From contig NC_090357.1 of the NCBI RefSeq assembly GCF_035084215.1, positions 806,001-870,000 of the forward strand: a DNA stretch of 64,000 nucleotides, read 5' to 3'. The position numbers and the translations under genes were made by a program. Positions within the stretch are counted from its first letter, which is position 1; each line of letters opens with the position of its first letter. Below, piece by piece: positions 21,961 to 61,360 of this stretch. The notes under the pieces were generated by a model. That model made no database searches. It worked only from the letters and a program-made list of their open reading frames with translations, and was not told the origin of the DNA. This DNA comes from Heptranchias perlo. Taxonomy: Eukaryota.

Positions 21961-22317
21961 ATTTAAAATCAATATTCAGAAGTTGTGAATTTGCTGCCTA
22001 CGCTCAATAGGATTGGGTTTTTGTCACCTTGTTATTTCTCCAGTTGGATTACAACCTGCCAAACAAACACTGACTTTTTTTGTTGTATTTGGAGGTGTCT
22101 GTTTCTCGGAGATTATTCTGTATCACACACTGCTCCTGGAATTGATTGAGAGCCTCCCTCCCTCTCTCTAAGGCAGAGGTTGTACTGGGCTTGATGTTTG
22201 AGACAGAGACATTGGCTGTGAGCTGCCCTGAAGAGGAATTTCACTCTGGGCACCGGGTGGGAGCTCTGTCCATGTGTGCTCTGATCCAGGGCTGTGAGTT
22301 TCGAATGATTTGAATGA

Positions 22318-23175
22318 ATGACTCACCTCCTGACCCCTCAAAAACTCTCCACCACCTACAAGGCTGAAGTTGGGAATGTGATGGAATATTCACCACTCAC
22401 TGGGATGGTGTTGCTGCAACAACACAACACCATCCAGGACAAAGCAGTTCACTCGATCGACACCCTCATCAATGGACTGAATATCCACTCTCTTCACCAT
22501 TGGTACATTGTGGTCGCAGTACGTGCAATCCACAGGATGCAGTGCAGGAACTCACCAAGTTTGCTTACACGTCAAATCCCAGCCACACAATCTCGGCCAT
22601 TGAGAAGGACAAGAGCAGCGACACTATGAAAACACCATCACATGTATGTTCTCCTCTCCTTAACCCTTGAAGTCCGGGTATCATTCTAGTAAACCTACGC
22701 TGCACTCCCTCCAAGGCCAATATGTCCTTCCGAAGGTGCGGTGCCCAGAACTGCTCACAGTACTCCAGGTGCGGTCAAACCAGGGTTTTGCACAGCTGCA
22801 GCATAACTTCTGCCCCCTTGGTTACGGGGAGCGGGCAGGAAATTGGACATTAATTTAGATTGAGGTTAGGATCAGATCAGCCATGATCTTATTGAATAGC
22901 GGAGCAGGCTCGAGGGGCCGATTGGCCTACTCCTGCTCCTATTCCTTATGTTCTTATGTTAACACACCAACCTGTCATGAACATATATGGCCATTCCTTC
23001 ACCGTCACTGGATTAAAATCCTGGAATTCCCTGCTTAAAACCATTGTTGGAACGCCATCATCACAGGGACTGCTGGGGTTCAATGCGAAGGCTGACCAGC
23101 ACCTGCTTAGGGCAAGTGATGGGCAATAAATGTGGCCTTGCCAGCGACGCCCACCTCCCGAGAACAAATAATAAT
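22318..23175 (+). mobile_element. Old 3' fragment of the 2326-3903 LINE family, interrupted by a small CR1 insertion (22660-22963); repeated at 35470, 43922 and 52357, and without the insertion at ~60734
   Basis: THLLTPQ..MEYSPL..IQDKA translation; 3'UTR GGGCAATAAATGTGGCCTTGCCAGCGACGCCCAC. Confidence 0.85.
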
Positions 23176-23310
23176 TTAAAAAATGAAAATGATAAAGTAT
23201 CTGGAGGTCTAGCTGGACAGGGACTGGAGTTATACTGCCACGCTCCGGAATTGGATCAATTCTATCGTCACTTTCGTGTTACAATGAAGTGGAAACCAGT
23301 TGCACAGTAT

Positions 23311-23386
23311 AGAAAGAGAGACTTGCATTTATATAGTGCCTTTCACAACCTCAGGACGTCCCAAGGCGCTTCCCGGCCAATGAAGT
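23311..23386 (-). mobile_element. SINE/L2-type 3' tail fragment (present in each unit)
   Basis: Reverse strand reads ...TTGGGACGTCCTGAGGTTGTGAAAGGCACTATATAAATGCAAGTCTCTCTTTCT, a typical L2-derived tail (recalled). Confidence 0.55.
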
Positions 23387-23727
23387 TCAGAGTAACGGCA
23401 GGGTAACAGAGTGAAAATAACCTGAGATTGGTTTGAGCCTGACTCCAATTCTGAGCAGAAACAGCCTCACTGCCTAAAGACACAAACACAAAGCCTGAAA
23501 TATTTCAATCAGTGAGTCACTTCACTGCTTTGCAATGTCACGCCTCTGATGTGTGTAATATTTGTGAGATAGAACAGAATCATTGACTCATACAGAACAG
23601 GAGGAGGCCATTCGGCCCATCGTGCCTGTGCCGGCTCATTCATAGAATCATAGAATCATAGAAGTTACAACATGGAAACAGGCCCTTCGGCCCAACATGT
23701 CCATGTCGCCCAGTTTATACCACTAAG

Positions 23728-26676
23728 CTAGTCCCAATTGCCTGCACTTGGCCCATATCCCTCGATGCCCATCTTCCCCATGTAACTGTCCAAATGCTTT
23801 TTAAAAGACAAAATTGTACCCGCCTCTACTACTGCCTCTGGCAGCTCGTTCCAGACACTCACCACCCTTTGAGTGAAAAAATTGCCCCTCTGGATCCTTT
23901 TGTATCTCTCCCCTCTCACCTTAAATCTGTGCCCCCTCGTTATAGACTCCCCTACCTTTGGGAAAAGATTTTGACTATCGACCTTATCTATGCCCCTCAT
24001 TATTTTATAGACTTCTATATGATCACCCCTTAACCTCCTACTCTCCAGGGAATAAAGTCCCAGTCTGTCTAACCTCTCCCTGTAAGTCAAACCATCAAGT
24101 CCCGGTAGCATCCTAGTAAATCTTTTCTGCACTCTTTCTAGTTTAATAATATCCTTTCTATAATAGGGTGACCAGAACTGTACACAGTACTCCAAGTGTG
24201 GCCTCACCAATGCCCTGTACAACTTCAACAAGACATCCCAACTCCTGCATTCAATGTTCTGACCAATGAAACCAAGCATGCTGAATGCCTTCTTCACCAC
24301 CCTATCCACCTGTGACTCCACTTTCAAGGAGCTATGAATCTGTACTCCTAGATCTCTTTGTTCTATAACTCTCCCCAACGCCCTACCATTAACGGAATAG
24401 GTCCTGGCCCGATTCGATCTACCAAAATGCATCACCTCACATTTATCTAAATTAAACTCCATCTGCCATTCATCGGCCCACTGGCCCAATTTATCAAGAT
24501 CCCGTTGCAATCCTAGATAACCTTCTTCACTGTCCACAATGCCACCAATCTTGGTGTCATCTGCAAACTTACTAACCATGCCTCCTAAATTCTCATCCAA
24601 ATCATTAATATAAATAACAAATAACAGCGGACCCAGCACCGATCCCTGAGGCACACCGCTGGACACAGGCATCCAGTTTGAAAAACAACCCTCTACAACC
24701 ACCCTCTGTCTTCTGTCGTCAAGCCAATTTTGTATCCAATTGGCTACCTCACCTTGGATCCCATGAGATTTAACCTTATGTAACAACCTACCATGCAGTA
24801 CCTTGTCAAATGCTTTGCTGAAGTCCATGTAGACCACGTCTACTGCACAGCCCTCATCTATCTTCTTGGTTACCCCTTCAAAAAACTCAATCAAATTCGT
24901 GAGACATGATTTTCCTCTCACAAAACCATGCTGACTGTTCCTAATTAGTCCCTGCCTCTCCAAATGCCTGTAGATTCTGTCCCTCAGAATACCCTCTAAC
25001 AACTTACCCACTACAGATGTCAGGCTCACTGGTCTATAGTTCCCAGGCTTTTCCCTGCCTCCCTTCTTAAACAAAGGCACAACATTTGCTACCCTCCAAT
25101 CTTCAGGCACCTCACCTGTAGCGGTGGATGATTCAAATATCTCTGCTAGGGGACCCGCAATTTCCTCCCTAACCTCCCATAACGTCCTGGGATACATTTC
25201 ATCAGGTCCCGGAGATTTATCTACCTTGATGCGCGTTAAGACTTCCAGCACCTCCCTCTCTGTAATATGTACACTCCTCAAGACATCACTATTTATTTCC
25301 CCAAGTTCCCTAACATCCATGCCTTTCTCAACCGTAAATACCGATGTGAAATATTCATTCAGGATCTCACCCATCTCTTGTGGTTCCGCACATAGATGAC
25401 CTTGTTGATCCTTAAGAGGCCCTACTCTCTCCCTAGTTACCCTTTTGCCCTTTATGTATTTGTAGAAGCTCTTTGGATTCACCTTTGCCTGATCTGCCAA
25501 AGCAATCTCATATCCCCTTTTTGCCCTCCTGATTTCTCTCTTAACTCTACTCCGGCAATCTCTATACTCTTCAAGGGATCCACTTGATCCCAGCTGCCTA
25601 TGCATGTCATATGCCTCCTTCTTCTTTTTGACTAGTGCCTCAATCTCCCGAGTCATCCAAGGTTCCCTACTTCTACCAGCCTTGCCCTTCACTTTATAAG
25701 GAATGTGCTTACCTTGAACCCTGGTTAACACACTTTTGAAAGCCTCCCACTTACCAGACGTCCCTTTGCCTGCCAACAGACTCTCCCAATCAACTTCTGA
25801 AAGTTCCTGTCTAATACCATCAAAATTGGCCTTTCCCCAATTTAGAATTTTAACTTTTGGGCCAGACCTATCCTTCTCCATAGCTATCTTAAAACTAATG
25901 GAATTATGATCACTGGTCCCAAAGTGATCCCTCACTAACACTTCTGTCACCTGCCCTTCCTTATTTCCCAAGAGGAGGTCAAGTTTTGCCCCCTCTCTAG
26001 TCGGGCCATCCACATACTGAATGAGAAATTCCTCCTGAATACACTCAACAAATTTCTCTCCATCCAAGCCCCTAATGCTATGGCTATCCCAGTCAATGTT
26101 GGGAAAGTTAAAGTCCCCTACTATTACCACCCTATTTTTCTTGCAGCTGTCTGTAATCTCCTTACATATTTGCTCCTCAATTTCCCGTTGACTATTTGGG
26201 GGTCTGTAGTACAATCCTATCAAAGTGATCTCTCCCTTCTTATTTTTCAGTTCTACCCATATGGACTCAGTGGGCGAACCCTCGGATATATCCCCTCTCA
26301 CTACTGCCGTGATGTTCTCCCTAATCAAGAACGCAACTCCCCCTCCTCTCTTACCTCCTGCTCTATCTTTCCTATAGCATCTGTACCCTGGAACATTGAG
26401 CTGCCAGTCCTGCCCCTCCCTTAGCCATGTTTCAGTAATAGCTATAACATCCCAGTCCCATGTACCCATCCATGCCCTGAGTTCATCTGCCTTGCCCATC
26501 AGACTTCTTGCATTGAAATAAATGCAGTTTAATCTAGACTTCCCTTGGTCTTTGCCCTGCTTTCTCAGACCATCTGTCCGGTCATGTTCTGTACACTCTC
26601 CCTTACTGCCTTTTGTTTCTGTCACCACTTTACTTCCCACTGACTTCCTGCATCGGTTCCCATCCCCCTGCCACAT
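23728..26676 (-). CDS. CR1 ORF2: APE endonuclease + reverse transcriptase (982 aa from the ATG at 26676)
   Basis: Uninterrupted ORF with NARSL, ITETWL, YRPPNS, GDFNFP, SDHN, NYRPVSLTS, QHGF, PQGSVLGP, FADD and RPHLEYC. Confidence 0.93.
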   Translation of the reverse strand: MWQGDGNRCRKSVGSKVVTETKGSKGECTEHDRTDGLRKQGKDQGKSRLNCIYFNARSLMGKADELRAWMGTWDWDVIAITETWLREGQDWQLNVPGYRCYRKDRAGGKRGGGVAFLIRENITAVVRGDISEGSPTESIWVELKNKKGEITLIGLYYRPPNSQREIEEQICKEITDSCKKNRVVIVGDFNFPNIDWDSHSIRGLDGEKFVECIQEEFLIQYVDGPTREGAKLDLLLGNKEGQVTEVLVRDHFGTSDHNSISFKIAMEKDRSGPKVKILNWGKANFDGIRQELSEVDWESLLAGKGTSGKWEAFKSVLTRVQGKHIPYKVKGKAGRSREPWMTREIEALVKKKKEAYDMHRQLGSSGSLEEYRDCRSRVKREIRRAKRGYEIALADQAKVNPKSFYKYIKGKRVTRERVGPLKDQQGHLCAEPQEMGEILNEYFTSVFTVEKGMDVRELGEINSDVLRSVHITEREVLEVLTRIKVDKSPGPDEMYPRTLWEVREEIAGPLAEIFESSTATGEVPEDWRVANVVPLFKKGGREKPGNYRPVSLTSVVGKLLEGILRDRIYRHLERQGLIRNSQHGFVRGKSCLTNLIEFFEGVTKKIDEGCAVDVVYMDFSKAFDKVLHGRLLHKVKSHGIQGEVANWIQNWLDDRRQRVVVEGCFSNWMPVSSGVPQGSVLGPLLFVIYINDLDENLGGMVSKFADDTKIGGIVDSEEGYLGLQRDLDKLGQWADEWQMEFNLDKCEVMHFGRSNRARTYSVNGRALGRVIEQRDLGVQIHSSLKVESQVDRVVKKAFSMLGFIGQNIECRSWDVLLKLYRALVRPHLEYCVQFWSPYYRKDIIKLERVQKRFTRMLPGLDGLTYRERLDRLGLYSLESRRLRGDHIEVYKIMRGIDKVDSQNLFPKVGESITRGHRFKVRGERYKRIQRGNFFTQRVVSVWNELPEAVVEAGTILSFKKHLDSYMGKMGIEGYGPSAGNWD

Positions 26677-27622
26677 TAGTTTAAACCCTCCCCAACAGCA
26701 CTGGCAAACACTCCCCCTAGGACATTGGTTCCAGTCCTGCCCAGATGCAGACCGTCCAATTTGTACTGGTCCCACCTCCCCCAGAACCGGTTCCAATGGC
26801 CCAGGAATTTGAATCCCTCCAGCTTGCACCATCTCTCAAGCCACGTATTCATCTTAGCTATCCTGTCATTCCTACTCTGACTAGCCCGTGGCACTGGTAG
26901 CAATCCTGAGATTACTACCCTTGAGGTCCTACTCTTTAGTTTAACTCCTAACTCCCTAAATTCAGCTTGTAGGACCTCATCCTGTTTTTTACCTATATCG
27001 TTGGTGCCTATATGCACCACGACAACTGGCTGTTCCCCCTCCCCCTCCAGAATGTCCTGCAGCCGCTCCGAGACATCCTTGACCCTTGCACCAGGGAGGC
27101 AACATACCATCCTGGAGTCTCGGTTGCGTCCGCAGAAACGCCTGTCTATTCCCCTTACAATCGAGTCCCCTATCACTATAGCTCTGCCACTCTTTTTCCT
27201 GCCCTCCTGTGCAGCAGAGCCAGCCACGGTGCCATGAACCTGGCCACTGCCACCTTCCCCTGGTGAGCCATCTCCCCAACAGTATCCAAAACGGTATACC
27301 TGTTTTGGAGGGAGATGACCGCAGGGGACCCCTGCACTGCCTTCCTACTCTTCCTCTGTCTGTTGGTCACCCATTCACTATCTCCCTCAGTAATTTTTAT
27401 CTGCGGTGTGACCAACTCACTGAACGTGCTATCCACGACTTTCTCAGCATCGCGGATGCTCCAAAGTGAGTCCATCCGCAGCTCCAGAGCCGTCAAGCGG
27501 TCAAACAATAGCTGCAGCTGGACACACTTCCCGCAGGTGAAGGAATCAGGGATACAGGAAGGATCCCTGAATTCCCACATCCCACAAGAGGAACATGACA
27601 CGGCGCTGGGATCTCCTGCCAT
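26676..27622 (-). pseudogene. CR1 ORF1 (N-terminal Cys knuckle/coiled coil + SGNH esterase) with a 1-nt frameshift at ~27274-27277
   Basis: CSSC...CGKC and LQNRY in ORF 27176-27622; IVIGDS, PGA, HIGTND and DGLH in ORF 26676-27227. One extra base in the G4 run would join the two frames. Confidence 0.88.
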
Positions 27623-27939
27623 GACTTAACCCTTAAATTAGCTTAAGAACAACTACAATGTCAAGAGAAAAAAAAAGGAAAGAAAAACTACTTACCACTC
27701 CCTTTAAGGAGTTTACTCCTTTAAATTGTTCTCAATTTAGAGAATGTTAACTACACTAGGGACCTTGATTCACTAAAAAATAAACGCTACTTCCTATAAG
27801 ACCTGCAGACCTTCCCTTTCCTTTTACTTCAGTTACTGTAGATAAGTAGAAATACTCACCTGAACCTACTCACCAATCAGGTGCCTCCCCTGTGTCGCGT
27901 CCCGATCTGATTCCTGACGTCACTTCGAACTCGGTCGCA

Positions 27940-28340
27940 GCTCCGCTCGGCTCGGCTCCTCTCAGCTGTTCTCAGCGCTCTGAAATCCCGCCTTTTATCG
28001 GACGCTCCCTCCGCTCGGCTCGGCTCCTCTCAGCTGTTCTCAGCGCTCTGAAATCCCGCCTTTTATCGGACGCTCCCTCCGCTCGGCTCGGCTCCTCTCA
28101 GCTGTTCTCAGCGCTCTGAAATCCCGCCTTTTATCGGACGCTCCCTCCGCTCGGCTCCTCTCAGCGCTCTGAAATCCCGCCTTTTATCGGACGCTCCCTC
28201 CGCTCGGCTCGGCTCCTCTCAGCGCTCTGAAATCCCGCCTTTTATCGGACGCTCCCTCCGCTCGGCTCGGCTCCTCTCAGCTGCACTCAGCGCTCTGAAA
28301 TCCCGCCTTTTATCGGACGCTCCCTCCGCTCGGCTCCTCT
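27940..28340 (-). repeat. CpG-rich tandem monomers (6 copies, 53-68 bp) forming the CR1 5' end
   Basis: TGAAATCCCGCCTTTTATCGGACG starts at 27981, 28049, 28117, 28170, 28228 and 28296. Confidence 0.9.
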
Positions 28341-28342
28341 CA

Positions 28343-30105
28343 ACGCTATCCAATTAGTCCCACTCTCCTGCTCTTTCCCCATAGTCCTGCAAATTTTCCC
28401 CCTTCGATTATTTATCCAATTCCTTTTTGAAATCCGCGATTGAATCTGCTTCCACCGCCCTTTCAGGCAGTGAATTCCAGATCATCACAACTCGCTGCGT
28501 AAAAACATTTTTCCTCACGTCATCTCTGATTCTTTTGCCAGTTACCTTAAATCTGTGTCCTCTGGTTACTAACCCAACTGCCACTGGAAACCGTTTCTCC
28601 TTATTTACTCTGTCAAAACCCTTCATGATTTTGAACACCTCGATTAAATCTCCTCTGAACCTTCTCTGGTCGAAGGAGAACAATCCCAGCTTCTCCAGTC
28701 TCTTCACGTAACTGAAGACTTTTATTCTAGTAAATCTCTTCTGCACCCTCTCTAAGGCCTTGACATCCTTCCTAAAGTGTGGTGCCCAGAATTGGCCACA
28801 ATACTCCAGCTGGGGTCTAACCAGTGTTTTATAAAGGTTTAGTATAACTTCCTTGCTTTCTGCCTCTATTTATTAAGCCCAGGGTCCCGATTGCCTTTTT
28901 AACAGCCTTCTCAACTTGTCCTGTCACCTTCAAAGATTTGTGGATTGTCTCTCCTCATTCTTCCTTCCAAATGTATCACTTCACACTTCTCTGCATTAAA
29001 TTCCATCTGCCATGTGTCTGCCCATTTCACCAGTCTGTCTCTGTCCTCCTGAAGTCTGTTACTATCCTCCACACTCATTACTACATTTCCGAGTTTCGTG
29101 TCATGTGCAAATTTTGAAATTATACCCTCTATATCCAAGTCAAGGTCATTGATATAAATCAAAAAAAGCAGTGGTCCCAACACCGACCCCTGGGAAACAC
29201 CACTGTAAACTTCCCTCCAGTCTGAGAAACAACTGTTCACCTCTACTCTCTGCTTTCTGTCACTTAGTCAATTACGTATCCATGATGCCACTGCCCTTTT
29301 AATTCTATGGCTTTAATTTTGCGAACAAGTCTATTGTGTGAAACTTTATCAAATGTCTTTTGAAAGTCCATTTACACATCGGCTGCACTCCCCTCATCAA
29401 CCCTCTCCGTTACTTCATCAAAGAACTCCATCAAGTTGGTTAGACCACCCTTGGAGCACTGTGCACAGTTCTGTTCTCCATATTATAAAAAAGATGTGGA
29501 GGCACTGGAGAAGGTGCAACAAAGATTCACAAGAATAATATCAGAACTGAATAGTTATAATTGTCGGGAAAGGCTGAACAGGCTGGGGCTCTTTTCTCTA
29601 GAAAAGAGAAGGCTGAGGGGTGACCTGATCGAGGTCTTTAAGATTATGAAAGGGTTTGATGGGGTAGACGTAGAGAAGATGTTTTCACTTGTGGGGGGGT
29701 CCAAAACTAGAATTCATAAATATAAGATAGTCACTAATAAATCCAATAGGGAATTCAGGAGAAACTTCTTTCCCCAGAGAGTGGTGAGAATGTGGAACTC
29801 GCTCCCACAAGGAGCAGTTGAGGTGAATAGTGTAGATCGATTTTAGGGGAAGCTCGATAAACACATGAGGAAGAAAGGAATAGAAGGATATGCTGATAGG
29901 GTGAGATGAAGGAGGGAGGGAGGAGACTCGTGTGGAGCGTAAACACCAGCATGGACCAGTTGGGCCGAATGGCCTGTTTCTGAGCTGTAGACTCGATGTA
30001 ACCCAGTGTTAGTCAAACACGATTTGCCTTTAACAAATCCATGCTGACTTTCATTAACCCATATTTTTCCAAGTGTCAATTAATTTTGTCCCAGATTATT
30101 GTCTC
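28343..30105 (-). mobile_element. Old CR1 3' half with a nested plus-strand CR1 3' fragment (29436-30000), unit A
   Basis: ORFs 28408-28746 and 28911-29240 (minus) and 29436-29846 (plus); the host resumes at ~30005 (ESQHGFVKGKSCLTN). Confidence 0.88.
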
Positions 30106-30770
30106 CAATTTATTTAATAATAGATTTTTAATATATGATGCAAAAGGCAAACTGCAAGGAAACTTCTGATCAAAGAAAGTAAATCAGAAAATGAGGAGAA
30201 AATAAGATATTGAGGCTGTGCTGGTGGGAAGTTGGAGAATTGGAAACAGTCAGTGGAAATACTTGTTAGAAACCCAGTTTCAAGTCAGAGTCACACTGGG
30301 AGCTCGTCCAACACCATCATTATCACTAGTGACAGGCAGAGGGCTGGGGGGAGAGAGGGACCAGCCCGTGAGGGGAGGGGTCTTGTGTCCAGTGCGTGAA
30401 GTGAGTCTTGTTTCATTGACCAAGAATAGGCAGTAACAGAACCCATGGGGATTCTATCAGCTGAAACCTTCCACCCTCCAAATTCAGCAATCTGTGCCAG
30501 TGGAATAAGATAATTAAACAAACTGGACATTTACTGACTGACACTTTGCAAACGATGAAATAAAACACGGAAACGTTATCAGTTCGAAAGTCATTTAAAG
30601 ATTTCTTCTCCACATTTACAGTCCACGCTCTGGGATTTCAATCAGTGATTTTAAATCCATTCCTTTCTACAACAAATAAATACATTGAAGATCGTTATAA
30701 ACAAAGACACAATGCTCTGTGCTCCGAGAGGGCTCCACAATCCTGAGTCACAGTTTGGCCGAATAACTTT

Positions 30771-33028
30771 CTAATCCTCATTTATTTCTCCAAGGTTCTG
30801 GCGGAAGTTGTCCCACAAGGTGGTGAGTTGGATCTCCAGATCCCGCTGGATGCTGTCTGCATACGGGACAAGCCTCTCTCGCATCTCCTCCACATTCTGG
30901 CTGATCACCTTGTTCAGCTGTTCAGAGTAGGGAGCAATGTTCTGATGGAACTCCTCGATTCTCTGGTTGACGTTGCTGTTGAGATCGTCAATGTATGGGG
31001 CCAGATTTTGGTTCATGCTTCCCATGTTCTCGTTGAGCTTTTCTTTCAGTTCTGCGACGTAAGGGACCAGCCTTTGCTTCAGAACCTCCACAGTCTCGTT
31101 GACCTTTCCCTGTAGCTCCTGAGCGTATGGCACAACCTTCTGGGTCATTTCACCAATCTGTTGGTTCATCTTGGCCTGGACATCTTTGGCATAGGGAGCC
31201 ATGGTATTGCGAAGCTCCTGGACTTTCTCATCAAACCTGGTGCGGAATTCCTCAGCATCGGCCGTCACCTTCTGCCTGAGCTTATCCACATTCTCAGTGA
31301 TCTTCTGCTGGAGTTGTTCAGCGTATGGAGTCAGAACTTCCCTCAGGTTCTCTGCGTTGTCTTCCAGTTTAGCCTGAAGCTCTTTGGTGTAGGGAGTCAA
31401 CCTCTGGCGGAGTTCCTCAGCGTTGGTGTTCAGCTGGTGGCGGAGCTCTTCAGCGTAAGGTGTCAGCTTCTGATGAAATTCTTCAATGTTCCTGCTGATC
31501 TTCTGGTGAACTCCATCAGTAAAAGGAGAAAGCTTCACCCTCAGGTCTTCCAGCTCCTGCCTGATCTGCTGGCGGAGATTCTCAGCATCTACTGTCATCT
31601 TTACACGAAGGTCGTCTGCGATGGGAGTCAGCCTCTGTTGGAGATCCTCAGTGTATCCATTGACGTTCTGCAGGTTATCCTTTATAAGATAACTGGAAAA
31701 GCAAACAAGAAAAGGTGATTTATTACATAGATGGAATAGGAAAAAATCATTTTGTTTGAGAGCTTTTTGGCCAATGGACTCTTGGCTAAGAATGGTTCAG
31801 GAACAGAACACAGTGGAGGACAGGGAGACCAGAAATGATGAGGACAGTGGTTTATCAGGAAAATAATTGACATGGGACCACAAAACCAACCATCCCACTG
31901 AGCGAGTTCCTGCCATCCGAGTTGGATTGTGTAACACCAGAGTAATATTGGCCTGTAGTGGCAGGAATGGGTTTATCAAACACCATCGAAAGACATCCAT
32001 TTTACACCGATGGACATTTTTTGATGATGTCATTCCCTCCTTTTCTGTAATTTTTGATCCCCTTGTTTGAAGCTGAATAGGCCACTGCCCATTGGCTCGC
32101 GGGTCACTCTAAATCAGCTGGCCATTGGTTGACCGTGAGGTGATGGTTCCCTCTGACTCTCTCGCCTCCCACTCAATGCCCCCTCCCCCGATTCAGTTCA
32201 AGGACTCCGCAAAGTGTGATTCCATTCTGTCTCTATCCCGGCCCCATGGCAGTGGGAATTAACTGGCCAAGTTGTCAATGACGTTTCTTCCTTCGATGTT
32301 TTTATTGGACGGCCATTTCTCGCTGTGTCCCAGGAGGCTGATCTGTACCGATGGCCCCACCTCACTCCCGGTACTCACTTGAGCCGTTGTCCGATTTCGG
32401 AGCGCTGGATCTGATCCACACTGTCCTTGGCGTCATTGGTCAATTGGCTGATGTAATCCCAGAATGCATCTCGAACCTGACCTCCATTGAACTCAGCCCG
32501 GGAGCCTATAGGGAGGAAGGAAACCAGAGGATCAGAGCGGGAACACGAGAAGAACATTCACTGAATTACTGTTCATTTCACAGACAAGCAGCTTGTGATG
32601 ATTCATTGACTTCACCATATCCTGTCTGGGGAATGTCCATCAGGGAGTAAAAAGATGGATCAGTTGCCTCCTCTCTGGAGACCGGTTCGGGATGGTCCAA
32701 TGAGTAAAATCCCTTTGTCTTTGAACATCTGGGACCAGGGTTTAAAACAAGCCCAGACAGAGGGGATGAAGCCGTCTCTCCACAATGAGACGCTGAGTGG
32801 TAGAACAGGCTATGCACAGGTCTCTTACCTCGAGACCCGAGCTTAGAACTGGTCCAAACAGAGGGCATGAAGATCGTGTGTCTGATGTCCATAAAATGCC
32901 ATTCATGCTCAGACAGGCAGCAAAAACCAACAGCACAAAACAAGCAGTCCAATAACCCAGGGAAGTATGGAAGACCTACCTGAGACCATGATGGCAGCTA
33001 CGAACACAAGGATTGCCTTGGGAAACAT
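30771..33028 (-). CDS. apoa4: Apolipoprotein A-IV-like, array copy A (365 aa; coding exons 33028-32980, 32505-32379, 31692-30771)
   Basis: ccaccATG gives the signal peptide MFPKAILVFVAAIMVS-G (49 nt). A 127-nt exon encodes SRAEFNGGQVRDAFWDYISQLTNDAKDSVDQIQRSEIGQRL. A 922-nt last exon encodes Pro-punctuated 22-mer amphipathic repeats (LTPYAEELR, LAPY...). All introns are GT..AG and the phases join in frame (1098 nt). Collinear with human APOA4 as recalled (MFLKAVVL..., [22 protein letters not shown]). Confidence 0.93.
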
Positions 33029-50603: not shown

Positions 50604-51456
50604 TCTCATCTTCTAAGCACTTATTCTGAGGGGTTTTGAGCGAGTAAATAGGGAGCAACTATTCCCAGTGGCAGGAGGGTTGGTAACCAGAGGACACAGA
50701 TTTAACTAATTGGCAAAAGAACCGGGGGGGAGATGAGGAGAATTTTTTTTACTCAGTGAGTTGTGATGATCTGGAATGTGCTGCCTGAAAGGGCGGTGGA
50801 AGCAGATTCAATAATAACTTTCAAAAGGGAATTGGTAAAATACTTGAAAAGGAGAAATTTGCAGGGCTCTGGGGAAAGAGGAGGGGAGTGGGATTAATTG
50901 GATAGATCTTTCTCTGATTTCACCCTCTTGTGAGGTAAGGTTCTGCTACACTATCCGATCGAACAATTTCATGCCTACCGACTGTCGCATCTTAATCGAA
51001 CAATCAGTTTTTGTAGATGGACAATAGATACTGCCCTGCAGTCAAAGAACGATTAAGAATTCCTGGGGCCCTGAGCACGGTTGGGGTGAGAGAGACAATT
51101 AGGGAGAGAGACAGATGGGAGAGAGACAGATGGGAGAGAGACAGATGGGAGAGAGACAGATGGGAGAGAGACAGATGGGGGACAGACAGATGGGAGAGAG
51201 ACAGATGGGGGACAGACGGTTGTGGGAGAGATGGTTGTGGGAGAGACATTTGTGGGAGAGACTATTGGGGAGAGGTGGTTGGGGGCAAGACAGTTGGGGG
51301 GAGATGGTTGGGGGAGAGAGAGTTTGGGGAAAGTAGATTGGGGAGAGAGAGTTGGGGGATAGACAGATGGGGAGGGACAGTTGGAGGTGAGGCGGTCGGA
51401 GGAGAGACAGTTGAGGGAGAGCGAGTTGAGGTGAGAGACAGCATTTGGAAGCAATA

Positions 51457-52189
51457 GGAACATAGGAACAGGAGGAGGCCATTCAGCCCCTCATGCCTGC
51501 TCCGTCATTTGATAAGATCATGGCTGATCTGTGATCTAACTCCATATACCTGCCTTTGGCCCATATCCCTTAATACCTTTGGTTGCCAAAAAGCCATCTA
51601 TCTCAGATTTAAATTTAGCAATTCAGCTAGTATCAATTGCCGTTTGCGGAAGAGAGTTCCAAACTTCTACCACCCTTTGTGTGTAGAAATGTTTTCTAAT
51701 CTCACTCCTGAAAGGTCTGGCTCTAATTTTTAGACTGTGCCCCCTACTCCTAGAATCCCCAACCAGCGGAAATAGTTTCTCTCTATCCACCCTATCCTTT
51801 CCCCTTAATATCTTATAAACTTTGATCAGATCACCCCTTAACCTTTGAAACTCTAGAGAATACAACCCCAATTTGTGTAATCTCTCCTCATAACTTAACC
51901 CTTGAAGTCCGGGTATCATTCTAGTAAACCTACGCTGCACTCCCTCCAAGGCCAATATGTCCTTCCGAAGGTGCGGTGCCCAGAACTGCTCACAGTACTC
52001 CAGGTGCGGTCTAACCAGGGTTTTGTTTAGCTGCAGCATAACTTCTGCCCCCTTGTACTCTAGTCCTCTTGATATAAAGGCCAGCATTCCATTAGCCTTA
52101 TTGATTATTTTCTGTACCTGTTCATGACACTTCAATGATCTATGTACCTGAATCCCTAGGTCCCTTTGGACATCCACTGTTTTTAACTT
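51457..52189 (-). mobile_element. Same truncated CR1, next unit (premature stop)
   Basis: ORF 51623-52192. Confidence 0.9.
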
Positions 52190-53611
52190 CAATATACAGA
52201 GTTGTTTGAGACCAGTAACTACAGCGTACAGTCTACAGCCGACACAGACATTGGCTGTGAGCTGCCCTGAAGAGGAATTTCACTCTGGGCACCGGGTGGG
52301 AGCTCTGTCCATGTGTGCTCTGCTCCAGGGCTGTGAGTTTCGAATGATTTGAATGAATGACTCACCTCCTGACCCCTCAAAAACTCTCCACCACCTACAA
52401 GGCTGAAGTTGGGAATGTGATGGAATATTCACCACTCACTGGGATGGTGTTGCTGCAACAACACAACACCATCCAGGACAAAGCAGTTCACTCGATCGAC
52501 ACCCTCATCAATGGACTGAATATCCACTCTCTTCACCATTGGTACATTGTGGTCGCAGTACGTGCAATCCACAGGATGCAGTGCAGGAACTCACCAAGTT
52601 TGCTTACACGTCAAATCCCAGCCACACAATCTCGGCCATTGAGAAGGACAAGAGCAGCGACACTATGAAAACACCATCACATGTATGTTCTCCTCTCCTT
52701 AACCCTTGAAGTCCGGGTATCATTCTAGTAAACCTACGCTGCACTCCCTCCAAGTCCAATATGTCCTTCCGAAGGTGCGGTGCCCAGAACTGCTCACAGT
52801 ACTCCAGGTGCGGTCTAACCAGGGTTTTGCATAGCTGCAGCATAACTTCTGCCCCCTTGGTTACGGGGAGCGGGCAGGAAATTGGACATTAATTTAGATT
52901 GAGGTTAGGATCAGATCAGCCATGATCTTATTGAATAGCGGAGCAGGCTCGAGGGGCCGATTGGCCTACTCCTGCTCCTATTCCTTATGTTCTTATGTTA
53001 ACACACCAACCTGTCATGAACATATATGGCCATTCCTTCACCGTCACTGGATTAAAATCCTGGAATTCCCTGCTTAAAACCATTGTTGGAACGCCATCAT
53101 CACAGGGACTGCTGGGGTTCAATGCGAAGGCTGACCAGCACCTGCTTAGGGCAAGTGATGGGCAATAAATGTGGCCTTGCCAGCGACGCCCACCTCCCGA
53201 GAACAAATAATAATTAAAAAAATGAAAATGATAAAGTATCTGGAGGTCTAGCTGGACAGGGACTGGAGTTATACTGCCACGCTCCGGAATTGGATCAATT
53301 CTATCGTCACTTTCGTGTTACAATGAAGTGGAAACCAGTTGCACAGTATAGAAAGAGAGACTTGCATTTATATAGTGCCTTTTACAACCTCAGGACGTCC
53401 CAAGGCGCTTCCCGGCCAATGAAGTTCAGAGTAACGGCAGGGTAACAGAGTGAAAATAACCTGAGATTGGTTTGAGCCTGACTCCAATTCTGAGCAGAAA
53501 CAGCCTCACTGCCTAAAGACACAAACACAAAGCCTGAAATATTTCAATCAGTGAGTCACTTCACTGCTTTGCAATGTCACGCCTCTGATGTGTGTAATAT
53601 TTGTGAGATAG

Positions 53612-55444
53612 AACAGAATCATTGACTCATACAGAACAGGAGGAGGCCATTCGGCCCATCGTGCCTGTGCCGGCTCATTCAAAGCTATCCAATTAGTCCC
53701 ACTCTCCTGCTCTTTCCCCATAGTCCTGCAAATTTTCCCCCTTCGATTATTTATCCAATTCCTTTTTGAAATCCGCGATTGAATCTGCTTCCACCGCCCT
53801 TTCAGGCAGTGAATTCCAGATCATCACAACTCGCTGCGTAAAAACATTTTTCCTCACGTCATCTCTGATTCTTTTGCCAGTTACCTTAAATCTGTGTCCT
53901 CTGGTTACTAACCCAACTGCCACTGGAAACCGTTTCTCCTTATTTACTCTGTCAAAACCCTTCATGATTTTGAACACCTCGATTAAATCTCCTCTTAACC
54001 TTCTCTGGTCGAAGGAGAACAATCCCAGCTTCTCCAGTCTCTTCACGTAACTGAAGACTTTTATTCTAGTAAATCTCTTCTGCACCCTCTCTAAGGCCTT
54101 GACATCCTTCCTAAAGTGTGGTGCCCAGAATTGGCCACAATACTCCAGCTGGGGTCTAACCAGTGTTTTATAAAGGTTTAGTATAACTTCCTTGCTTTCT
54201 GCCTCTATTTATTAAGCCCAGGGTCCCGATTGCCTTTTTAACAGCCTTCTCAACTTGTCCTGTCACCTTCAAAGATTTGTGGATTGTCTCTCCTCATTCT
54301 TCCTTCCAAATGTATCACTTCACACTTCTCTGCATTAAATTCCATCTGCCATGTGTCTGCCCATTTCACCAGTCTGTCTCTGTCCTCCTGAAGTCTGTTA
54401 CTATCCTCCACACTCATTACTACATTTCCGAGTTTCGTGTCATGTGCAAATTTTGAAATTATACCCTCTATATCCAAGTCAAGGTCATTGATATAAATCA
54501 AAAAAAGCAGTGGTCCCAACACCGACCCCTGGGAAACACCACTGTAAACTTCCCTCCAGTCTGAGAAACAACTGTTCACCTCTACTCTCTGCTTTCTGTC
54601 ACTTAGTCAATTACGTATCCATGATGCCACTGCCCCTTTAATTCTATGGCTTTAATTTTGCGAACAAGTCTATTGTGTGAGACTTTATCAAATGTCTTTT
54701 GAAAGTCCATTTACACATCGGCTGCACTCCCCTCATCAACCCTCTCCGTTACTTCATCAAAGAACTTGATCAAGTTGGTTAGACCACCCTTGGAGCACTG
54801 TGCACAGTTCTGTTCTCCATATTATAAAAAAGATGTGGAGGCACTGGAGAAAGTGCAACAAAGATTCACAAGAATAATATCAGAACTGAATAGTTATAAC
54901 TGTCGGGAAAGGCTGAACAGGCTGGGGCTCTTTTCTCTAGAAAAGAGAAGGCTGAGGGGTGACCTGATCGAGGTCTTTAAGATTATGAAAGGGTTTGATG
55001 GGGTAGACGTAGAGAAAATGTTTCCACTTGTGGGGGAGACCAAAACTAGAATTCATAAATATAAGATAGTCACTAATAAATCCAATAGGGAATTCAGGAG
55101 AAACTTCTTTACCCAGAGAGTGGTGAGAATGTGGAACTCGCTCCCACAAGGAGCAGTTGAGGTGAATAGTGTGGATGGATTTAAGGGGAAGCTCGATAAA
55201 CACATGAGGAAGAAAGGAATAGAAGGATATGCTGATAGGGTGAGATGAAGGAGGGAGGGAGGAGACTCGTGTGGAGCGTAAACACCAGCATGGACCAGTT
55301 GGGCCGAATGGCCTGTTTCTGAGCTGTAGACTCGATGTAACCCAGTGTTAGTCAAACACGATTTGCCTTTAACAAATCCATGCTGACTTTCATTAACCCA
55401 TATTTTTCCAAGTGTCAATTAATTTTGTCCCAGATTATTGTCTC
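53612..55444 (-). mobile_element. Same nested CR1 pair, unit D
   Basis: ORFs 53747-54085, 54250-54579 and 54766-55248. Confidence 0.88.
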
Positions 55445-56109
55445 CAATTTATTTAATAATAGATTTTTAATATATGATGCAAAAGGCAAACTGCAAGGAA
55501 ACTTCTGATCAAAGAAAGTAAATCAGAAAATGAGGAGAAAATAAGATATTGAGGCTGTGCTGGTGGGAAGTTGGAGAATTGGAAACAGTCAGTGGAAATA
55601 CTTGTTAGAAACCCAGTTTCAAGTCAGAGTCACACTGGGAGCTCGTCCAACACCATCATTATCACTAGTGACAGGCAGAGGGCTGGGGGGAGAGAGGGAC
55701 CAGCCCGTGAGGGGAGGGGTCTTGTGTCCAGTGCGTGAAGTGAGTCTTGTTTCATTGACCAAGAATAGGCAGTAACAGAACCCATGGGGATTCTATCAGC
55801 TGAAACCTTCCACCCTCCAAATTCAGCAATCTGTGCCAGTGGAATAAGATAATTAAACAAACTGGACATTTACTGACTGACACTTTGCAAACGATGAAAT
55901 AAAACACGGAAACGTTATCAGTTCGAAAGTCATTTAAAGATTTCTTCTCCACATTTACAGTCCACGCTCTGGGATTTCAATCAGTGATTTTAAATCCATT
56001 CCTTTCTACAACAAATAAATACATTGAAGTTCGTTATAAATAAAGACACAATGCTCTGTGCTCCGAGAGGGCTCCACAATCCTGAGTCACAGTTTGGCCG
56101 AATAACTTT

Positions 56110-58367
56110 CTAATCCTCATTTATTTCTCCAAGGTTCTGGCGGAAGTTGTCCCACAAGGTGGTGAGTTGGATCTCCAGATCCCGCTGGATGCTGTCTGCA
56201 TACGGGACAAGCCTCTCTCGCATCTCCTCCACATTCTGGCTGATCACCTTGTTCAGCTGTTCAGAGTAGGGAGCAATGTTCTGATGGAACTCCTCGATTC
56301 TCTGGTTGACGTTGCTGTTGAGATCGTCAATGTATGGGGCCAGATTTTGGTTCATGCTTCCCATGTTCTCGTTGAGCTTTTCTTTCAGTTCTGCGACGTA
56401 AGGGACCAGCCTTTGCTTCAGAACCTCCACAGTCTCGTTGACCTTTCCCTGTAGCTCCTGAGCGTATGGCACAACCTTCTGGGTCATTTCACCAATCTGT
56501 TGGTTCATATTGGCCTGGACATCTTTGGCATAGGGAGCCATGGTATTGCGAAGCTCCTGGACTTTCTCATCAAACCTGGTGCGGAATTCCTCAGCATCGG
56601 CCGTCACCTTCTGCCTGAGCTTGTCCACATTCTCAGTGATCTTCTGCTGGAGTTGTTCAGCGTATGGAGTCAGAACTTCCCTCAGGTTCTCTGCGTTGTC
56701 TTCCAGTTTGGCCTGAAGCTCTTTGGTGTAGGGAGTCAACCTCTGGCGGAGTTCCTCAGCGTTGGTGTTCAGCTGGTGGCGGAGCTCTTCAGCGTAAGGT
56801 GTCAGCTTCTGATGAAATTCTTCAATGTTCCTGCTGATCTTCTGGTGAACTCCATCAGCAAAAGGAGAAAGCTTCACCCTCAGGTCTTCCAGCTCCTGCC
56901 TGATCTGCTGGCGGAGATTCTCAGCATCTACTGTCATCTTTACACGAAGGTCGTCTGCGATGGGAGTCAGCCTCTGTTGGAGATCCTCAGCGTATCCATT
57001 GACGTTCTGCAGGTTATCCTTTATAAGATAACTGGAAAAGCAAACAAGAAAAGGTGATTTATTACATAGATGGAATAGGAAAAAATCATTTTGTTTGAGA
57101 GCTTTTTGGCCAATGGACTCTTGACTAAGAATGGTTCAGGAACAGAACACAGTGGAGGACAGGGAGACCAGAAATGATGAGGACAGTGGTTTATCAGGAA
57201 AATAATTGACATGGGACCACAAAACCAACCATCCCACTGAGCGAGTTCCTGCCATCCGAGTTGGATTGTGTAACACCAGAGTAATATTGGTCTGTAGTGG
57301 CAGGAATGGGTTTATCAAACACCATCGAAAGACGTCCATTTTACACCGATGGACATTTTTTGATGATGTCATTCCCTCCTTTTCTGTAATTTTTGATCCC
57401 CTTGTTTGAAGCTGAATAGGCCACTGCCCATTGGCTCGCGGGTCACTCTCAATCAGCTGGCCATTGGTTGACCGTGAGGTGATGGTTCCCTCTGACTCTC
57501 TCGCCTCCCACTCAATGCCCCCTCCCCCGATTCAGTTCAAGGACTCCGCAAAGTGTGATTCCATTCTGTCTCTATCCCGGCCCCATGGCAGTGGGAATTA
57601 ACTGGCCAAGTTTTCAATGACGTTTCTTCCTTCGATGTTTTTACTGGACGGCCATTTCTCGCTGTGTCCCAGGAGGCTGATCTGTACCGATGGCCCCACC
57701 TCACTCCCGGTACTCACTTGAGCCGTTGTCCGATTTCGGAGCGCTGGATCTGATCTACACTGTCCTTGGCGTCATTGGTCAATTGGCTGATGTAATCCCA
57801 GAATGCATCTCGAACCTGACCTCCATTGAACTCAGCCCGGGAGCCTATAGGGAGGAAGGAAACCAGAGGATCAGAGCGGGAACACGAGAAGAACATTCAC
57901 TGAATTACTGTTCATTTCACAGACAAGCAGCTTGTGATGATTCATTGACTTCACCATATCCTGTCTGGGGAATGTCCATCAGGGAGTAAAAAGATGGATC
58001 AGTTGCCTCCTCTCTGGAGACCGGTTCGGGATGGTCCAATGAGTAAAATCCCTTTGTCTTTGAACATCTGGGACCAGGGTTTAAAACAAGCCCAGACAGA
58101 GGGGATGAAGCCGTCTCTCCACAATGAGACGCTGAGTGGTAGAACAGGCTACGCACAGGTCTCTTACCTCGAGACCCGAGCTTAGAACTGGTCCAAACAG
58201 AGGGCATGAAGATCGTGTGTCTGATGTCCATAAAATGCCATTCATGCTCAGACAGGCAGCAAAAACCAACAGCACAAAACAAGCAGTCCAATAACCCAGG
58301 GAAGTATGGAAGACCTACCTGAGACCACGATGGCAGCTACGAACACAAGGATTGCCTTGGGAAACAT
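56110..58367 (-). CDS. apoa4: Apolipoprotein A-IV-like, array copy D (coding exons 58367-58319, 57844-57718, 57031-56110)
   Basis: Copy of A at +25339; intact; private changes M14V in the signal peptide and VQANM. Confidence 0.93.
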
Positions 58368-58778
58368 GGTGGATTTCTCAAACTGGCGAATTGAATACAA
58401 TTTCTGTTTTCTCAACCAATCTCTGAAAAGGCAAAAAATCCGGGTTAGTCTGAGATTTCAATCACAAAATCTTTCATGGTCTGTTATTGCATTCCGTGTG
58501 GAACTTGCTTCCTGCTGAAAATCTGTTGCATTTATTTACAGGACATTCTGATTATTAAAGTCTCTCTCTGAACCTCACACAATTATAAACTGTCACCTGA
58601 CTGTAAATATAAACCAGTATTCTTTATATCAGGTGTGAGCTTCCACCAGTTGTCTGAGACACTGCGACCTTACACAGAGAGCACCGTCTGAGCGGGTCCC
58701 TGGGTAAGTGTGTAAACACTGTGTGTTCCCCGGCTTGTAGCAGTGTGAGGTGCAGCTGTTACACTCAGCTCCTCTTAC

Positions 58779-59039
58779 CTGTCTCGGCTGTGCTGCTCCT
58801 GGAGCTCTGTGTCTCAGCCCTACAGGCCCTCGCTGTATATGAGGGCATCTTATCAGCGGCTGATAAGGAGCAGCTCTGTTCGGGCTCAGAACATGGACTT
58901 TCTCTGCTGCACAGAGAACGTGGAACTTCCAACAAACCTGTTACTGTCAGCGGTGATGTGTTTCCTCAAATGTGGCTCAAACTCCACCGCGATTCCCCTC
59001 CTGGTACAAAAGTCATAGTTTGATAACATCTGTAATGTT
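58779..59039 (-). promoter_or_regulatory. apoa4 copy D exon 1 and promoter
   Basis: Same motifs at +25339 (GATA palindrome 58849-58867). Confidence 0.68.
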
Positions 59040-59847
59040 TCTCATCTTCTAAGCACTTATTCTGAGGGGTTTTGAGCGAGTAAATAGGGAGCAACTATTT
59101 CCAGTGGCAGGAGGGTCGGTAACCAGAGGACACAGATTTAACTAATTGGCAAAAGAACCAGGGGGGAGATGAGGAGAATTTTTTTTACTCAGTGAGTTGT
59201 TCTGATCTGGAATGTGCTGCCTGAAAGGGCGGTGGAAGCAGATTCAATAATAACTTTCAAAAGGGAATCGGATAAATACTTGAAAAGGAGAAATTTGCAG
59301 GGCTCTGGGGAAAGAGGAGGGGAGTGGGATTAATTGGATAGATCTTTCTCTGATTTCACCCTCTTGTGAGGTAAGGTTCTGCTACACTATCCGATCGAAC
59401 AATTTCATGCCTACCGACTGTCGCATCTTAATCGAACAATCAGTTTTTGTAGATGGACAATAGATACTGCCCGGCAATCACAGAACGATTAAGAATTCCT
59501 GGGGCCCTGAGCACGGTTGGGGTGAGAGAGACAATTAGGGGGAGAGACAGATGGGAGAGAGACAGATGGGAGAGAGACAGATGGGAGAGAGACAGATGGG
59601 AGAGAGACAGATGGGGGACAGACAGATGGGAGAGAGACAGATGGGGGACAGACAGTTGTGGGAGAGACGGTTGTGGGAGAGACATTTGTGGGAGAGACTA
59701 TTGGGGAGAGGTGGTTGGGGGCAAGACAGTTGGGGGGAGATGGTTGGGGGAGAGAGAGTTCGGAGGAGAGAGAGTTTGGGGAAAGTAGATTGGGGAGAGA
59801 GAGTTGGGGGATAGACAGATGGGGAGGGACAGTTGGAGGTGAGGTGG

Positions 59848-60732
59848 TCACAGGTTTGGGAGGTGCTGTTGAAGAAGCCTTGGCGAGTTGCTGCAGTGCA
59901 TCCTATGGATGGTACACACTGCAGCCACTGTGCGCCGGTGGTGAAGGGAGTGAATGTTTAGGGTGGTGGATGGGGTGCCAATCAAGCGGGCTGCTTTGTC
60001 CTGGATGGTGTCGTGCTTCTTGAGTGTTGTTGGAGCTGCACTCATCCAGGCAAGTGGAGAGTATTCCATCACACCCCTGACTTGTGCCTTGTAGATGGTG
60101 GAAAGGTTTTGGGGAGTCAGGAGGTGAGTCACTCGCTGCAGAATACCCAGCCTCTGACCTGCTCTTGTAGCCACAGTATTTATGTGGCTGGTCCAGTTAA
60201 GTTTCTGGTCAATGGTGACCCCCAGGATGTTGATGGTGGGGGATTCGGCGATGGTAATGCCGTTGAATGTCAAGGGGAGGTGGTTAGACTCTCTCTTTTT
60301 GGAGATGGTCATTGCCTGGCACTTGTCTGGCGCGAATGTTACTTGCTACTTATCAGTCCAAGCCTGGATGTTGTCCAGGTCTTGCTGCATGCTGGCTCGG
60401 ACTCCTTCATTATCTGAGGGGTTGCGAATGGAACTGAACAATGTGCAATCATCAGCGAACATCCCCATTTCTGACCTTATGATGGAGGGAAGGTCATTGA
60501 TGAAGCAGCTGAAGATGGTTGGGCCTAGGACACTGCCCTGAGGAACTCCTGCAGCAATTTCCTGGGGCTGAGATGATTGGCCTCCAACAACCACTACCAT
60601 CTTCCTTTGTGCTGGGTATGTCTCCAGCCACTGGAGAGTTTCCCCCTGATTCCCATTGACTTCAATTTGACTAGGGCTCCTTGGTGCCACACTCGGTCAA
60701 ATGCTGCCTTGATGTCAAGGGCAGTCACTCTC
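59848..60732 (-). mobile_element. Internal RT fragment of the 2326-3903 LINE family, with no 3' tail
   Basis: ORFs 59848-60312 and 60346-60690 closely match the translation of ~2620-3503. Confidence 0.9.
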
Positions 60733-61360
60733 GAGTTCACTCGATCGACACCCTCATCAATGGACTGAATATCCACTCTCTTCACCATTGGTACATTGTG
60801 GTCGCAGTACGTGCAATCCACAGGATGCAGTGCAGGAACTCACCAAGTTTGCTTACACGTCAAATCCCAGCCACACAATCTCGGCCATTGAGAAGGACAA
60901 GAGCAGCGACACTATGAAAACACCATCACATGTATGTTCTCCTCTCCTTAACACACCATCCTGTCATGAACATATATGGCCATTCCTTCACCGTCACTGG
61001 ATTAAAATCCTGGAATTCCCTGCTTGAAACCATTGTTGGAACGCCATCATCACAGGGACTGCTGGGGTTCAATGCGAAGGCTGACCAGTACCTGCTTAGG
61101 GAAGTGATGGGCAATAAATGTGGCCTTGCCAGCGACGCCCACCTCCTGAGAACAAATAATAATTAAAAAATTAAAATGATAAAGTATCTGGAGGTCTAGC
61201 TGGACAGGGACTGGAGTTATACTGCCACGCTCTGGAATTGGATCAATTCTATCGTCACTTTCATGTTACAATGAAGTGGAAACCAGTTGCACAGTATAGA
61301 AAGAGAGACTTGCATTTATATAGTGCCTTTCACAACCTCAGGACGTCCCAAGGCGCTTCC

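What the first reader, a model, noticed from the sequence alone, without database searches (positions are those of the whole stretch)
22200..61360. Recently amplified tandem array of intact apoA-IV genes
Seen: four head-to-tail ~8.45-kb units, each with a complete promoter, four exons and an open 365-aa apoA-IV. Each encodes a slightly different protein (A: GYTED/FTDG; B: KVMAD/VQTK; C: consensus; D: M14V/VQAN). The array abuts an N gap, so copy number may be higher. Known: mammals have one APOA4, and zebrafish has tandem apoa4b paralogs. Inference: an independent, very recent gene-dosage amplification of a lipid-transport apolipoprotein, probably in a shark. It may be copy-number variable and tied to high lipid flux (e.g. 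an oil-rich liver). This is the strongest candidate for new biology in the window.
Basis: partly seen in the sequence, partly recalled or inferred. Interest (0 to 1): 0.8.

Follow-up and report, generated by a model that had tools for sequence, protein, structure and literature searches.

The report
Shark apolipoprotein A-IV gene array
A shark carries five nearly identical, intact copies of a blood fat-transport gene plus one older relative; the copies look real and are kept alike by recombination, but nothing found here shows that the extra copies raise output or help the animal.

Summary
In detail: four head-to-tail 8.44-8.45 kb units each encode an open 365-aa apoA-IV-like protein with the stated differences. 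A DNA run gives a depth ratio of 5.1 against E's unique part, versus 4.8 expected from the assembly, so false duplication is unlikely. The cluster lies beside ZPR1 and BUD13, the tetrapod APOA5/APOA4 position, and is not the zebrafish apoa4b lineage (AU p=0.0015). Near-identity is partly gene conversion: F and E carry 99% tracts inside flanks 77-83% alike, so 'very recent' overstates; copies differ by 0.75%. Dosage adaptation is unsupported: dN/dS 0.72 is indistinguishable from neutral; one RNA run shows only copy D's letters, another shows mostly E (tissues unknown). Best reading: a real, lineage-level tandem amplification under concerted evolution with unequal expression. A new instance of a common process.

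The parts
30771..33501 (-). Copy A: TATA-like motif 33501, putative non-coding exon 1 (donor after 33440), coding exons 33028-32980, 32505-32379, 31692-30771; 365 aa (T73, T117)
39223..41953 (-). Copy B: coding exons 41480-41432, 40957-40831, 40144-39223; 365 aa (M202, T232)
47674..50404 (-). Copy C: coding exons 49931-49883, 49408-49282, 48595-47674; 365 aa
   Evidence: both coding introns spliced in RNA contigs laid on this copy
56110..58840 (-). Copy D: coding exons 58367-58319, 57844-57718, 57031-56110; 365 aa (V14, N233); the copy whose letters the spliced contig of run X6 carries
28331..59849 (.). Tandem block: units 28331-36783, 36784-45234, 45235-53670 and partial 53671-59849; 0.67-0.84% pairwise divergence over shared length
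22202..23631 (.). Left end of the array: 3' flank of copy A, cut off from it by a LINE insertion
23642..28331 (-). Full-length CR1-type LINE (open 1035-aa endonuclease-RT frame 23728-26835; GDSL-esterase frame 26676-27344), present in this unit only
21380..21959 (.). 15-bp minisatellite at the array's left edge; the same repeat with the same right-hand flank recurs once per unit (34187-34554, 42639-43006, 51090-51441, 59526-59836): likely crossover site
60734..61360 (.). Remnants of a further unit start (98-99.5% to unit B), behind a LINE fragment 59850-60733, ending at the N stretch
61361..61573 (.). 213 N; gap or mask cannot be told apart. The gene upstream of it matches the neighbour of apoA-IV in two other elasmobranchs, so the join looks right
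4336..18101 (-). Paralog E: exons 18101-18056, 5974-5848, 5161-4336; 332 aa; 12-kb intron 2 holding a 9-kb G-rich satellite; spliced and strongly represented in run X5
4907..6003 (-). Gene-conversion tract in E: 1097 bp, 1.1-1.7% from the array copies, while E's 3' exon is about 80% and its 3' UTR 77% alike
1..410 (+). Far 3' flank of inverted copy F (gene itself outside the window at G000:C36:800823-805862, ATG at L001:5804); only 83% alike to the array's flank 21945-22300, beside an inverted copy of the 15-bp minisatellite (403-621)

Best explanation
An old apoA-IV(/A-V-type) gene cluster next to ZPR1 holds two paralog types: E and the 'array type'. The array type was duplicated once in inverted orientation long ago (F) and expanded head-to-tail, most likely by unequal crossing-over starting in a 15-bp minisatellite present in every unit; continuing unequal crossover and gene conversion keep A-D, F and part of E about 99% alike (concerted evolution). 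SHOWN: copy number about 5, intact frames, mosaic variation, conversion tracts, splicing, D (and probably F) transcribed. INFERRED: the crossover mechanism and site; that the proteins are secreted amphipathic-helix exchangeable apolipoproteins acting on lipoprotein surfaces like apoA-IV; that expression is partitioned (E bulk in one tissue, array type lower and led by the edge copies D and F), so that the inner copies add little and copy number drifts nearly neutrally.
For: Depth ratio 206.7/40.4 = 5.1 vs 4.80 expected. Five distinct sequences, 0.51-0.94% apart, no two-haplotype grouping; 83 transitions (31 at CpG) vs 43 transversions, few indels. 118 of 210 pairs of informative sites fail the four-gamete test. 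F gene body 99% but flank 83%; E tract 98-99% but 3' part about 80%. Minisatellite with shared right flank at the left edge and in each unit. 9 nonsynonymous and 5 synonymous variants, dN/dS 0.72, p=0.56 against neutrality; coding vs non-coding variable sites p=0.34; chance of no stop among 14 changes 0.56. X6 spliced contig: 0 differences from D, 7-9 from the others at listed letters, while the DNA contig has the non-D letter at 4 of the 5 sites where D stands alone among A-D and F. X5: E-type contigs depth 4250-6713, array-type 3' exon 97.7.
Against: The neutrality test has little power (14 variants). Tissues of the runs are unknown and only 2 of 4 same-sample RNA-type runs were laid; intestine or yolk sac may be missing. 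The tool warns that contig depth is no copy number and cannot rank genes; the baseline is one contig, and the neighbouring 3' flank contig gave 6.6 against about 4.8 expected. 86 difference rows were not shown, so A-, B- or C-specific RNA letters may be hidden. The DNA contig carries the D-only letter at 49892, so the other haplotype may differ from the assembly. All five copies being intact, and the array type being the slowest-evolving shark apoA-IV-like protein in the trees (branch 0.11-0.18 vs 0.3-0.8), also fit a selected function.
Confidence: 0.6

Rival explanations
1. Dosage adaptation: the array type is the main apoA-IV of a tissue not seen here (intestine, yolk sac, uterus), and extra copies are selected to raise output for high lipid flux.
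For: 5 of 5 copies intact; array-type protein keeps regular 22-residue proline spacing and a short branch; a second species also transcribes a spliced array-type mRNA (X9); zebrafish apoA-IV genes are yolk- and gut-expressed and fat-induced (PMC4348566, passages).
Against: No detectable purifying selection among copies; RNA contigs carry D or D/F letters, not an even mix; E dominates the run with strong signal. No ecological or physiological data were available.
Confidence: 0.22
2. Subfunctionalisation among copies: D, F and E have distinct tissue domains through their different upstream contexts, and these three are retained by selection, while A-C are passengers.
For: X6 shows D without E; X5 shows E plus F-private letters in introns (48839, 49144, 49537) and exon 4 (48084); F has several private changes 330-350 bp upstream of its TATA-like motif.
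Against: Two runs of unknown tissue; contig assembly keeps one path per bubble; intronic contigs could include DNA. Overlaps with the best explanation.
Confidence: 0.14
3. Assembly artefact: false duplication or stacked haplotypes of one or two genes.
For: The array ends at an N stretch; the DNA run may be the assembly's own source, so it is not an independent animal.
Against: Depth ratio 5.1; five distinct sequences exceed two haplotypes; mutation-like spectrum; copy-private letters recur in RNA contigs; unit-specific LINE insertion with a short target duplication.
Confidence: 0.04

Closest known systems
Tetrapod APOA4 (and APOA5) in the 11q23.3 APOA1/C3/A4/A5 cluster
   Same: Best solved-structure match is human apoA-IV (E 2.2e-64; apoA-I 3e-18); lies beside ZPR1 and BUD13 (human APOA4-APOA5-ZPR1-BUD13 grouping seen in a search listing, PMC12263347); 22-mer repeats.
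   Different: Five near-identical copies plus a paralog instead of one gene; probable 5' UTR intron, which PMC6854765 says apoA-IV lost; apoA-I lies 7.4 Mb away; tree cannot separate A4 from A5 affinity.
Zebrafish apoa4b.1-3 tandem triplet
   Same: Local tandem paralogs of an apoA-IV-named gene with short branches among them (PMC4348566, passages).
   Different: Different lineage: zebrafish genes are syntenic with APOE; their counterpart here is G000:C45:11608522; grouping the array with them is rejected (p-AU 0.0015).
Other apolipoprotein cluster expansions: lamprey lal2 (eight loci on one scaffold) and teleost ApoD clusters
   Same: Lineage-specific local amplification of lipid-carrier genes (PMC7431520 passages; PMC6325677 listing and start of abstract only).
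   Different: Other gene families or subfamilies; ApoD is a lipocalin (recalled).
Annotated elasmobranch 'apoA-IV-like' genes (Heterodontus, Carcharodon, Cetorhinus, Mustelus, Stegostoma, Pristiophorus, Pristis, Hemitrygon)
   Same: One clade with array type and E (97/96 and 100/99); same upstream neighbour gene in Heterodontus and Hemitrygon models.
   Different: Only 36-48% identical in exon 4, C-terminal repeats more degenerate; their 90% clusters hold 1-3 members, isoforms where named, so no array is evident, though their genomes were not searched.

Membership tests
Apolipoprotein A1/A4/E family | PF01442 above the curated cut-off | tested here: met
   271.8 bits vs 90 for copy C exon 4; 178.2 for E
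Apolipoprotein A1/A4/E family | Proline-punctuated 22/11-residue amphipathic repeats in the last exon | tested here: met
   Proline spacing 33,22,22,22,44,22,22,22,22,22; hydrophobic moments 0.27-0.45 at 100 degrees, no control computed
ApoA-IV proper | Closest to apoA-IV among named human apolipoproteins | tested here: met
   PDB apoA-IV E 2.2e-64, apoA-I 3e-18, apoE 1.9e-13; apoA-V did not appear among the 40 matches; frog apoA-V 114.9 bits vs alligator apoA-IV 168.2
ApoA-IV proper | Position at the BUD13-ZPR1 end of the APOA cluster | tested here: met
   ZPR1 at C36:777749-790141, BUD13 at 745613-746746, same strand as A-D; in humans the gene next to ZPR1 is APOA5 (recalled)
ApoA-IV proper | One clade with tetrapod apoA-IV to the exclusion of apoA-V | tested here: inconclusive
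   Shark clade in an open fork with A4, A5 and sturgeon/bichir genes (82/81); AU p=0.083 with A4, 0.18 with A5; may be pro-orthologous to both
ApoA-IV proper | Three exons (first intron lost), per PMC6854765 | tested here: inconclusive
   Motifs suggest a 5' UTR intron; no exon 1 joint in 3 of 3 RNA-type runs, X6 contig reads 74 nt into the putative intron
ApoA-IV proper | Lipid binding, chylomicron/HDL association, fat-induced intestinal expression | not testable with these tools
   Run tissues are not on record
Teleost apoa4a/apoa4b (apoE-linked) lineage | Clade with zebrafish apoa4b and synteny with APOE | tested here: not met
   p-AU 0.0015; the C45:11608522 gene groups with Danio apoa4b.2 (93/91)
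Tandem gene array under concerted evolution | Real multi-copy state in reads | tested here: met
   Depth ratio 5.1 vs 4.8 expected, one run, one baseline contig
Tandem gene array under concerted evolution | Mosaic variation among copies and conversion tracts in older paralogs | tested here: met
   118 of 210 site pairs incompatible; E tract and F flank
Tandem gene array under concerted evolution | Paralogs closer to each other than to the ortholog of a related species | tested here: met
   0.75% among copies vs 86 of 1305 exonic letters (6.6%) to organism B; B's own copy number unknown
Adaptive gene-dosage amplification | All copies expressed additively; purifying selection on copies; copy number tied to phenotype | tested here: inconclusive
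   D or D/F letters only in two runs, E dominant in one; dN/dS 0.72, p=0.56; phenotype untestable

The most novel reading that the evidence does not exclude
This shark lineage kept an ancestral-type apoA-IV/A-V gene that other annotated sharks lost or let drift, split the work with paralog E (bulk expression in one tissue), and amplified the ancestral type five-fold under selection for lipid export in a tissue not sampled here (gut, yolk sac or reproductive tract): the first dosage-selected APOA4 amplification at the orthologous 11q23-type locus.
Probability: 0.18. Interest if true: 0.65.

Novelty: new member of a known kind. Interest (0 to 1): 0.36.

Why it matters
Modestly. It documents a six-gene apoA-IV cluster at the tetrapod APOA5/APOA4 position in a shark, which none of my paper searches returned, and corrects the assumption that fish 'apoA-IV' arrays are one lineage. 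It is a clean natural case of gene conversion disguising old duplicates as new, and private SNPs make copy-resolved expression directly testable. If dosage selection were shown it would link apoA-IV copy number to shark lipid physiology; the present evidence does not.

Tried and rejected
False duplication/haplotype stacking: rejected. Further copies on unplaced contigs: none; 5 matches each for two unit-specific probes, 7 for exon 4 including E and a decayed C10 fragment. Mis-join at the N stretch: unlikely, since the next gene upstream matches the neighbour fused to apoA-IV in Heterodontus and Hemitrygon models, and no N or unit sequence lies in C36:8.22-8.33 Mb near apoA-I. E as ortholog of other sharks' genes to the exclusion of the array type: suggested at 83/87 on the unconverted C-terminal part but open under the mixture model and AU p=0.30; not claimed. 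The 31-row tree did not finish its careful search (quick tree only); the 19-row tree left out E, F and 11 other rows. No run is on record as RNA; RNA status of X5, X6, X9 is the tool's guess, backed here by spliced joints. 4 of 13 listed runs were laid. The alignment-based homolog search added nothing new. Earlier scan findings: none. Paper searches listed no report of a shark apoA-IV array; only listings were seen except PMC6854765 (part 1 of 5 plus passages), PMC4348566, PMC10587355, PMC7431520 (passages); no supplements were read and subscription journals are largely missing. No structure or complex prediction was run: identity was clear from sequence.
Full report
1. Observation. The window is G000:C36:806001-870000 of a 3.25-Gb genome; homologs place it among sharks. 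Self-comparison shows units 28331-36783, 36784-45234, 45235-53670 and a partial 53671-59849, 99.0-99.2% alike. The 3' flank of copy A continues at 22202-23631 beyond a full-length CR1-type LINE found in that unit only. Remnants of another unit start (60734-61360) run into 213 N.

2. A genome search with exon 4 gave 7 matches: the four copies, an inverted copy F at C36:800823-805862 with an intact 365-aa frame and three private amino-acid changes, a divergent paralog E in the window (exons 18101-18056, 5974-5848, 5161-4336; 332 aa), and a decayed fragment on C10. Two unit-specific probes each gave 5 matches, all on C36. The order is BUD13, ZPR1, F (+), E (-), A, B, C, D (-).

3. Is it real? Over 4485 shared bases the five copies differ by 0.51-0.94%, with private variants in each (F 16, B 15, D 8, A 8, C 6) and no split into two haplotype classes. 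Changes are 83 transitions (31 at CpG) and 43 transversions, a mutation-like spectrum. In DNA run X4 one collapsed contig covers 47471-50663 at depth 206.7; a contig with 14 differences in 78 letters, exactly E's count, has depth 40.4. The ratio 5.1 compares with 4.80 expected from word multiplicity in the assembly; the adjoining 3' flank contig gave 6.6 against about 4.8. The tool warns that such depths are no copy number, the baseline is a single contig, and X4 may be the assembly's source; still, a false duplication would give 1-2. I read about five copies, six at most.

4. Identity. Exon 4 matches PF01442 at 271.8 bits and human apoA-IV at E 2.2e-64 against 3e-18 for apoA-I; prolines fall every 22 residues. 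ZPR1/BUD13 adjacency is the tetrapod APOA5/APOA4 position (listing of PMC12263347; exact order recalled). In a 19-row tree the shark genes form one clade (100/99) in an open fork with tetrapod A4, A5 and sturgeon/bichir genes; AU tests do not reject union with A4 (p 0.083) or A5 (p 0.18) but reject union with the zebrafish apoa4b type (p 0.0015), whose counterpart is on C45. PMC4348566 (passages) reports that zebrafish apoA-IV genes are syntenic with APOE. So 'apoA-IV' is the best name, possibly pro-orthologous to A4 and A5, and the zebrafish triplet is an analogy only.

5. How it arose. A 15-bp minisatellite with the same right-hand flank stands at the left edge and once in each unit, which fits unequal crossing-over seeded there (inference). 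118 of 210 pairs of informative sites are incompatible with one tree. E shares a 1097-bp tract 1.1-1.7% from the array while its 3' exon is about 80% and 3' UTR 77% alike. F is 99% alike over the gene but 83% (216 of 259) in its far flank. These are conversion tracts in older duplicates, so identity does not date the duplications. Mean divergence 0.75% equals 5.4 million generations (2.7-27) at the epaulette-shark rate of 7e-10 (PMC10587355, passages), a rate from another species. An unnamed relative (organism B) has a spliced array-type mRNA 6.6% away (86 of 1305): the gene type predates that split, and the last homogenisation is about a tenth as old.

6. Does dosage matter? Among the five copies there are 9 nonsynonymous and 5 synonymous variants, dN/dS 0.72, p 0.56; intact frames are expected by chance with probability 0.56. 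Power is low. Of 4 same-sample RNA-type runs, 2 were laid. X6 gives one spliced 1373-nt contig identical to D at the listed letters (7-9 differences from other copies; the contig has 9 other letters, 7 listed), while the DNA contig has the non-D letter at 47594, 48073, 48274 and 49320 but the D letter at 49892. X5 gives E-type contigs (33-nt skip, E exon 2 spliced across the 12-kb intron, confirmed) at depth 4250-6713, and array-type 3' exon at 97.7 with D and F letters; intron contigs carry F-private letters. No A-, B- or C-private letter is in the 40 rows shown; 86 were hidden. Tissues are unknown and contig depth cannot rank genes finely, but the pattern is unequal expression led by edge copies, not additive dosage. 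For dosage: all copies intact, the array type has the shortest branch among shark apoA-IV-like proteins, and gut or yolk sac may be unsampled.

7. Comparison and novelty. Annotated elasmobranch homologs are 36-48% identical, in clusters of 1-3 members; their genomes were not searched. Local expansions of apolipoprotein genes are known (zebrafish apoa4b; eight lamprey lal2 loci). Seven paper searches listed no shark apoA-IV array, within a library that lacks most subscription journals; supplements were not read. Verdict: real, apparently unreported, a new instance of tandem amplification with concerted evolution; adaptive reading unproven (about 0.2). Interest 0.36.

Noticed in passing
window 23642-28331 (-): Full-length CR1-type LINE with an open 1035-aa endonuclease-RT frame and a GDSL-esterase frame; fragments 96-98.6% alike occur in fetched flanks, so the family is young.
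   Followed up: partly
window 8951-17944: 9-kb, 72% GC, 14-bp satellite inside intron 2 of paralog E; the intron is nonetheless spliced out in run X5.
   Followed up: partly
G000:C36:8301952-8302521 and 8698522-8712377: apoA-I (groups with whale-shark apoA-I, 100/99) and SIDT2 lie 7.4-7.8 Mb from the apoA-IV cluster: the 11q23-type APOA cluster is split.
   Followed up: partly
L009-L012 (G000:C36:894227-920710, -): Uncharacterised multi-exon gene with no Pfam match upstream of the array; it matches the N-terminal part fused to apoA-IV in Heterodontus and Hemitrygon gene models, which are probably read-through annotation errors.
   Followed up: partly
L043:8800-9460 and L044:8500-9140 (G000:C36:8269419, 8279089, -): Two further open, divergent apolipoprotein-like last exons next to apoA-I (22-25% to copy C); not named.
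   Followed up: no
L053:4010-4627 (G000:C45:11634013): ApoE-like gene (basic RKYRKRLNRD segment; colinear PDB apoE matches E about 1e-12, though apoA-IV scores similarly) 25 kb from the zebrafish-type apoA4 gene; PMC6854765 says cartilaginous fish lack apoE.
   Followed up: partly
L015:8850-10000, L016:1-200 (G000:C10:68179460-68180190): Decayed, about 80% alike fragment of apoA-IV exon 4 and 3' UTR with stops and a repeat insertion on another chromosome.
   Followed up: partly
window 1302-2288: 33-bp minisatellite, about 30 copies, 92% alike, between F and E.
   Followed up: no
window 47430-47673: No AATAAA or ATTAAA in 380 bases after the stop of copy C (one AGTAAA); RNA contigs end at 47516-47528, near an AAGAAA shared with E.
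   Followed up: no
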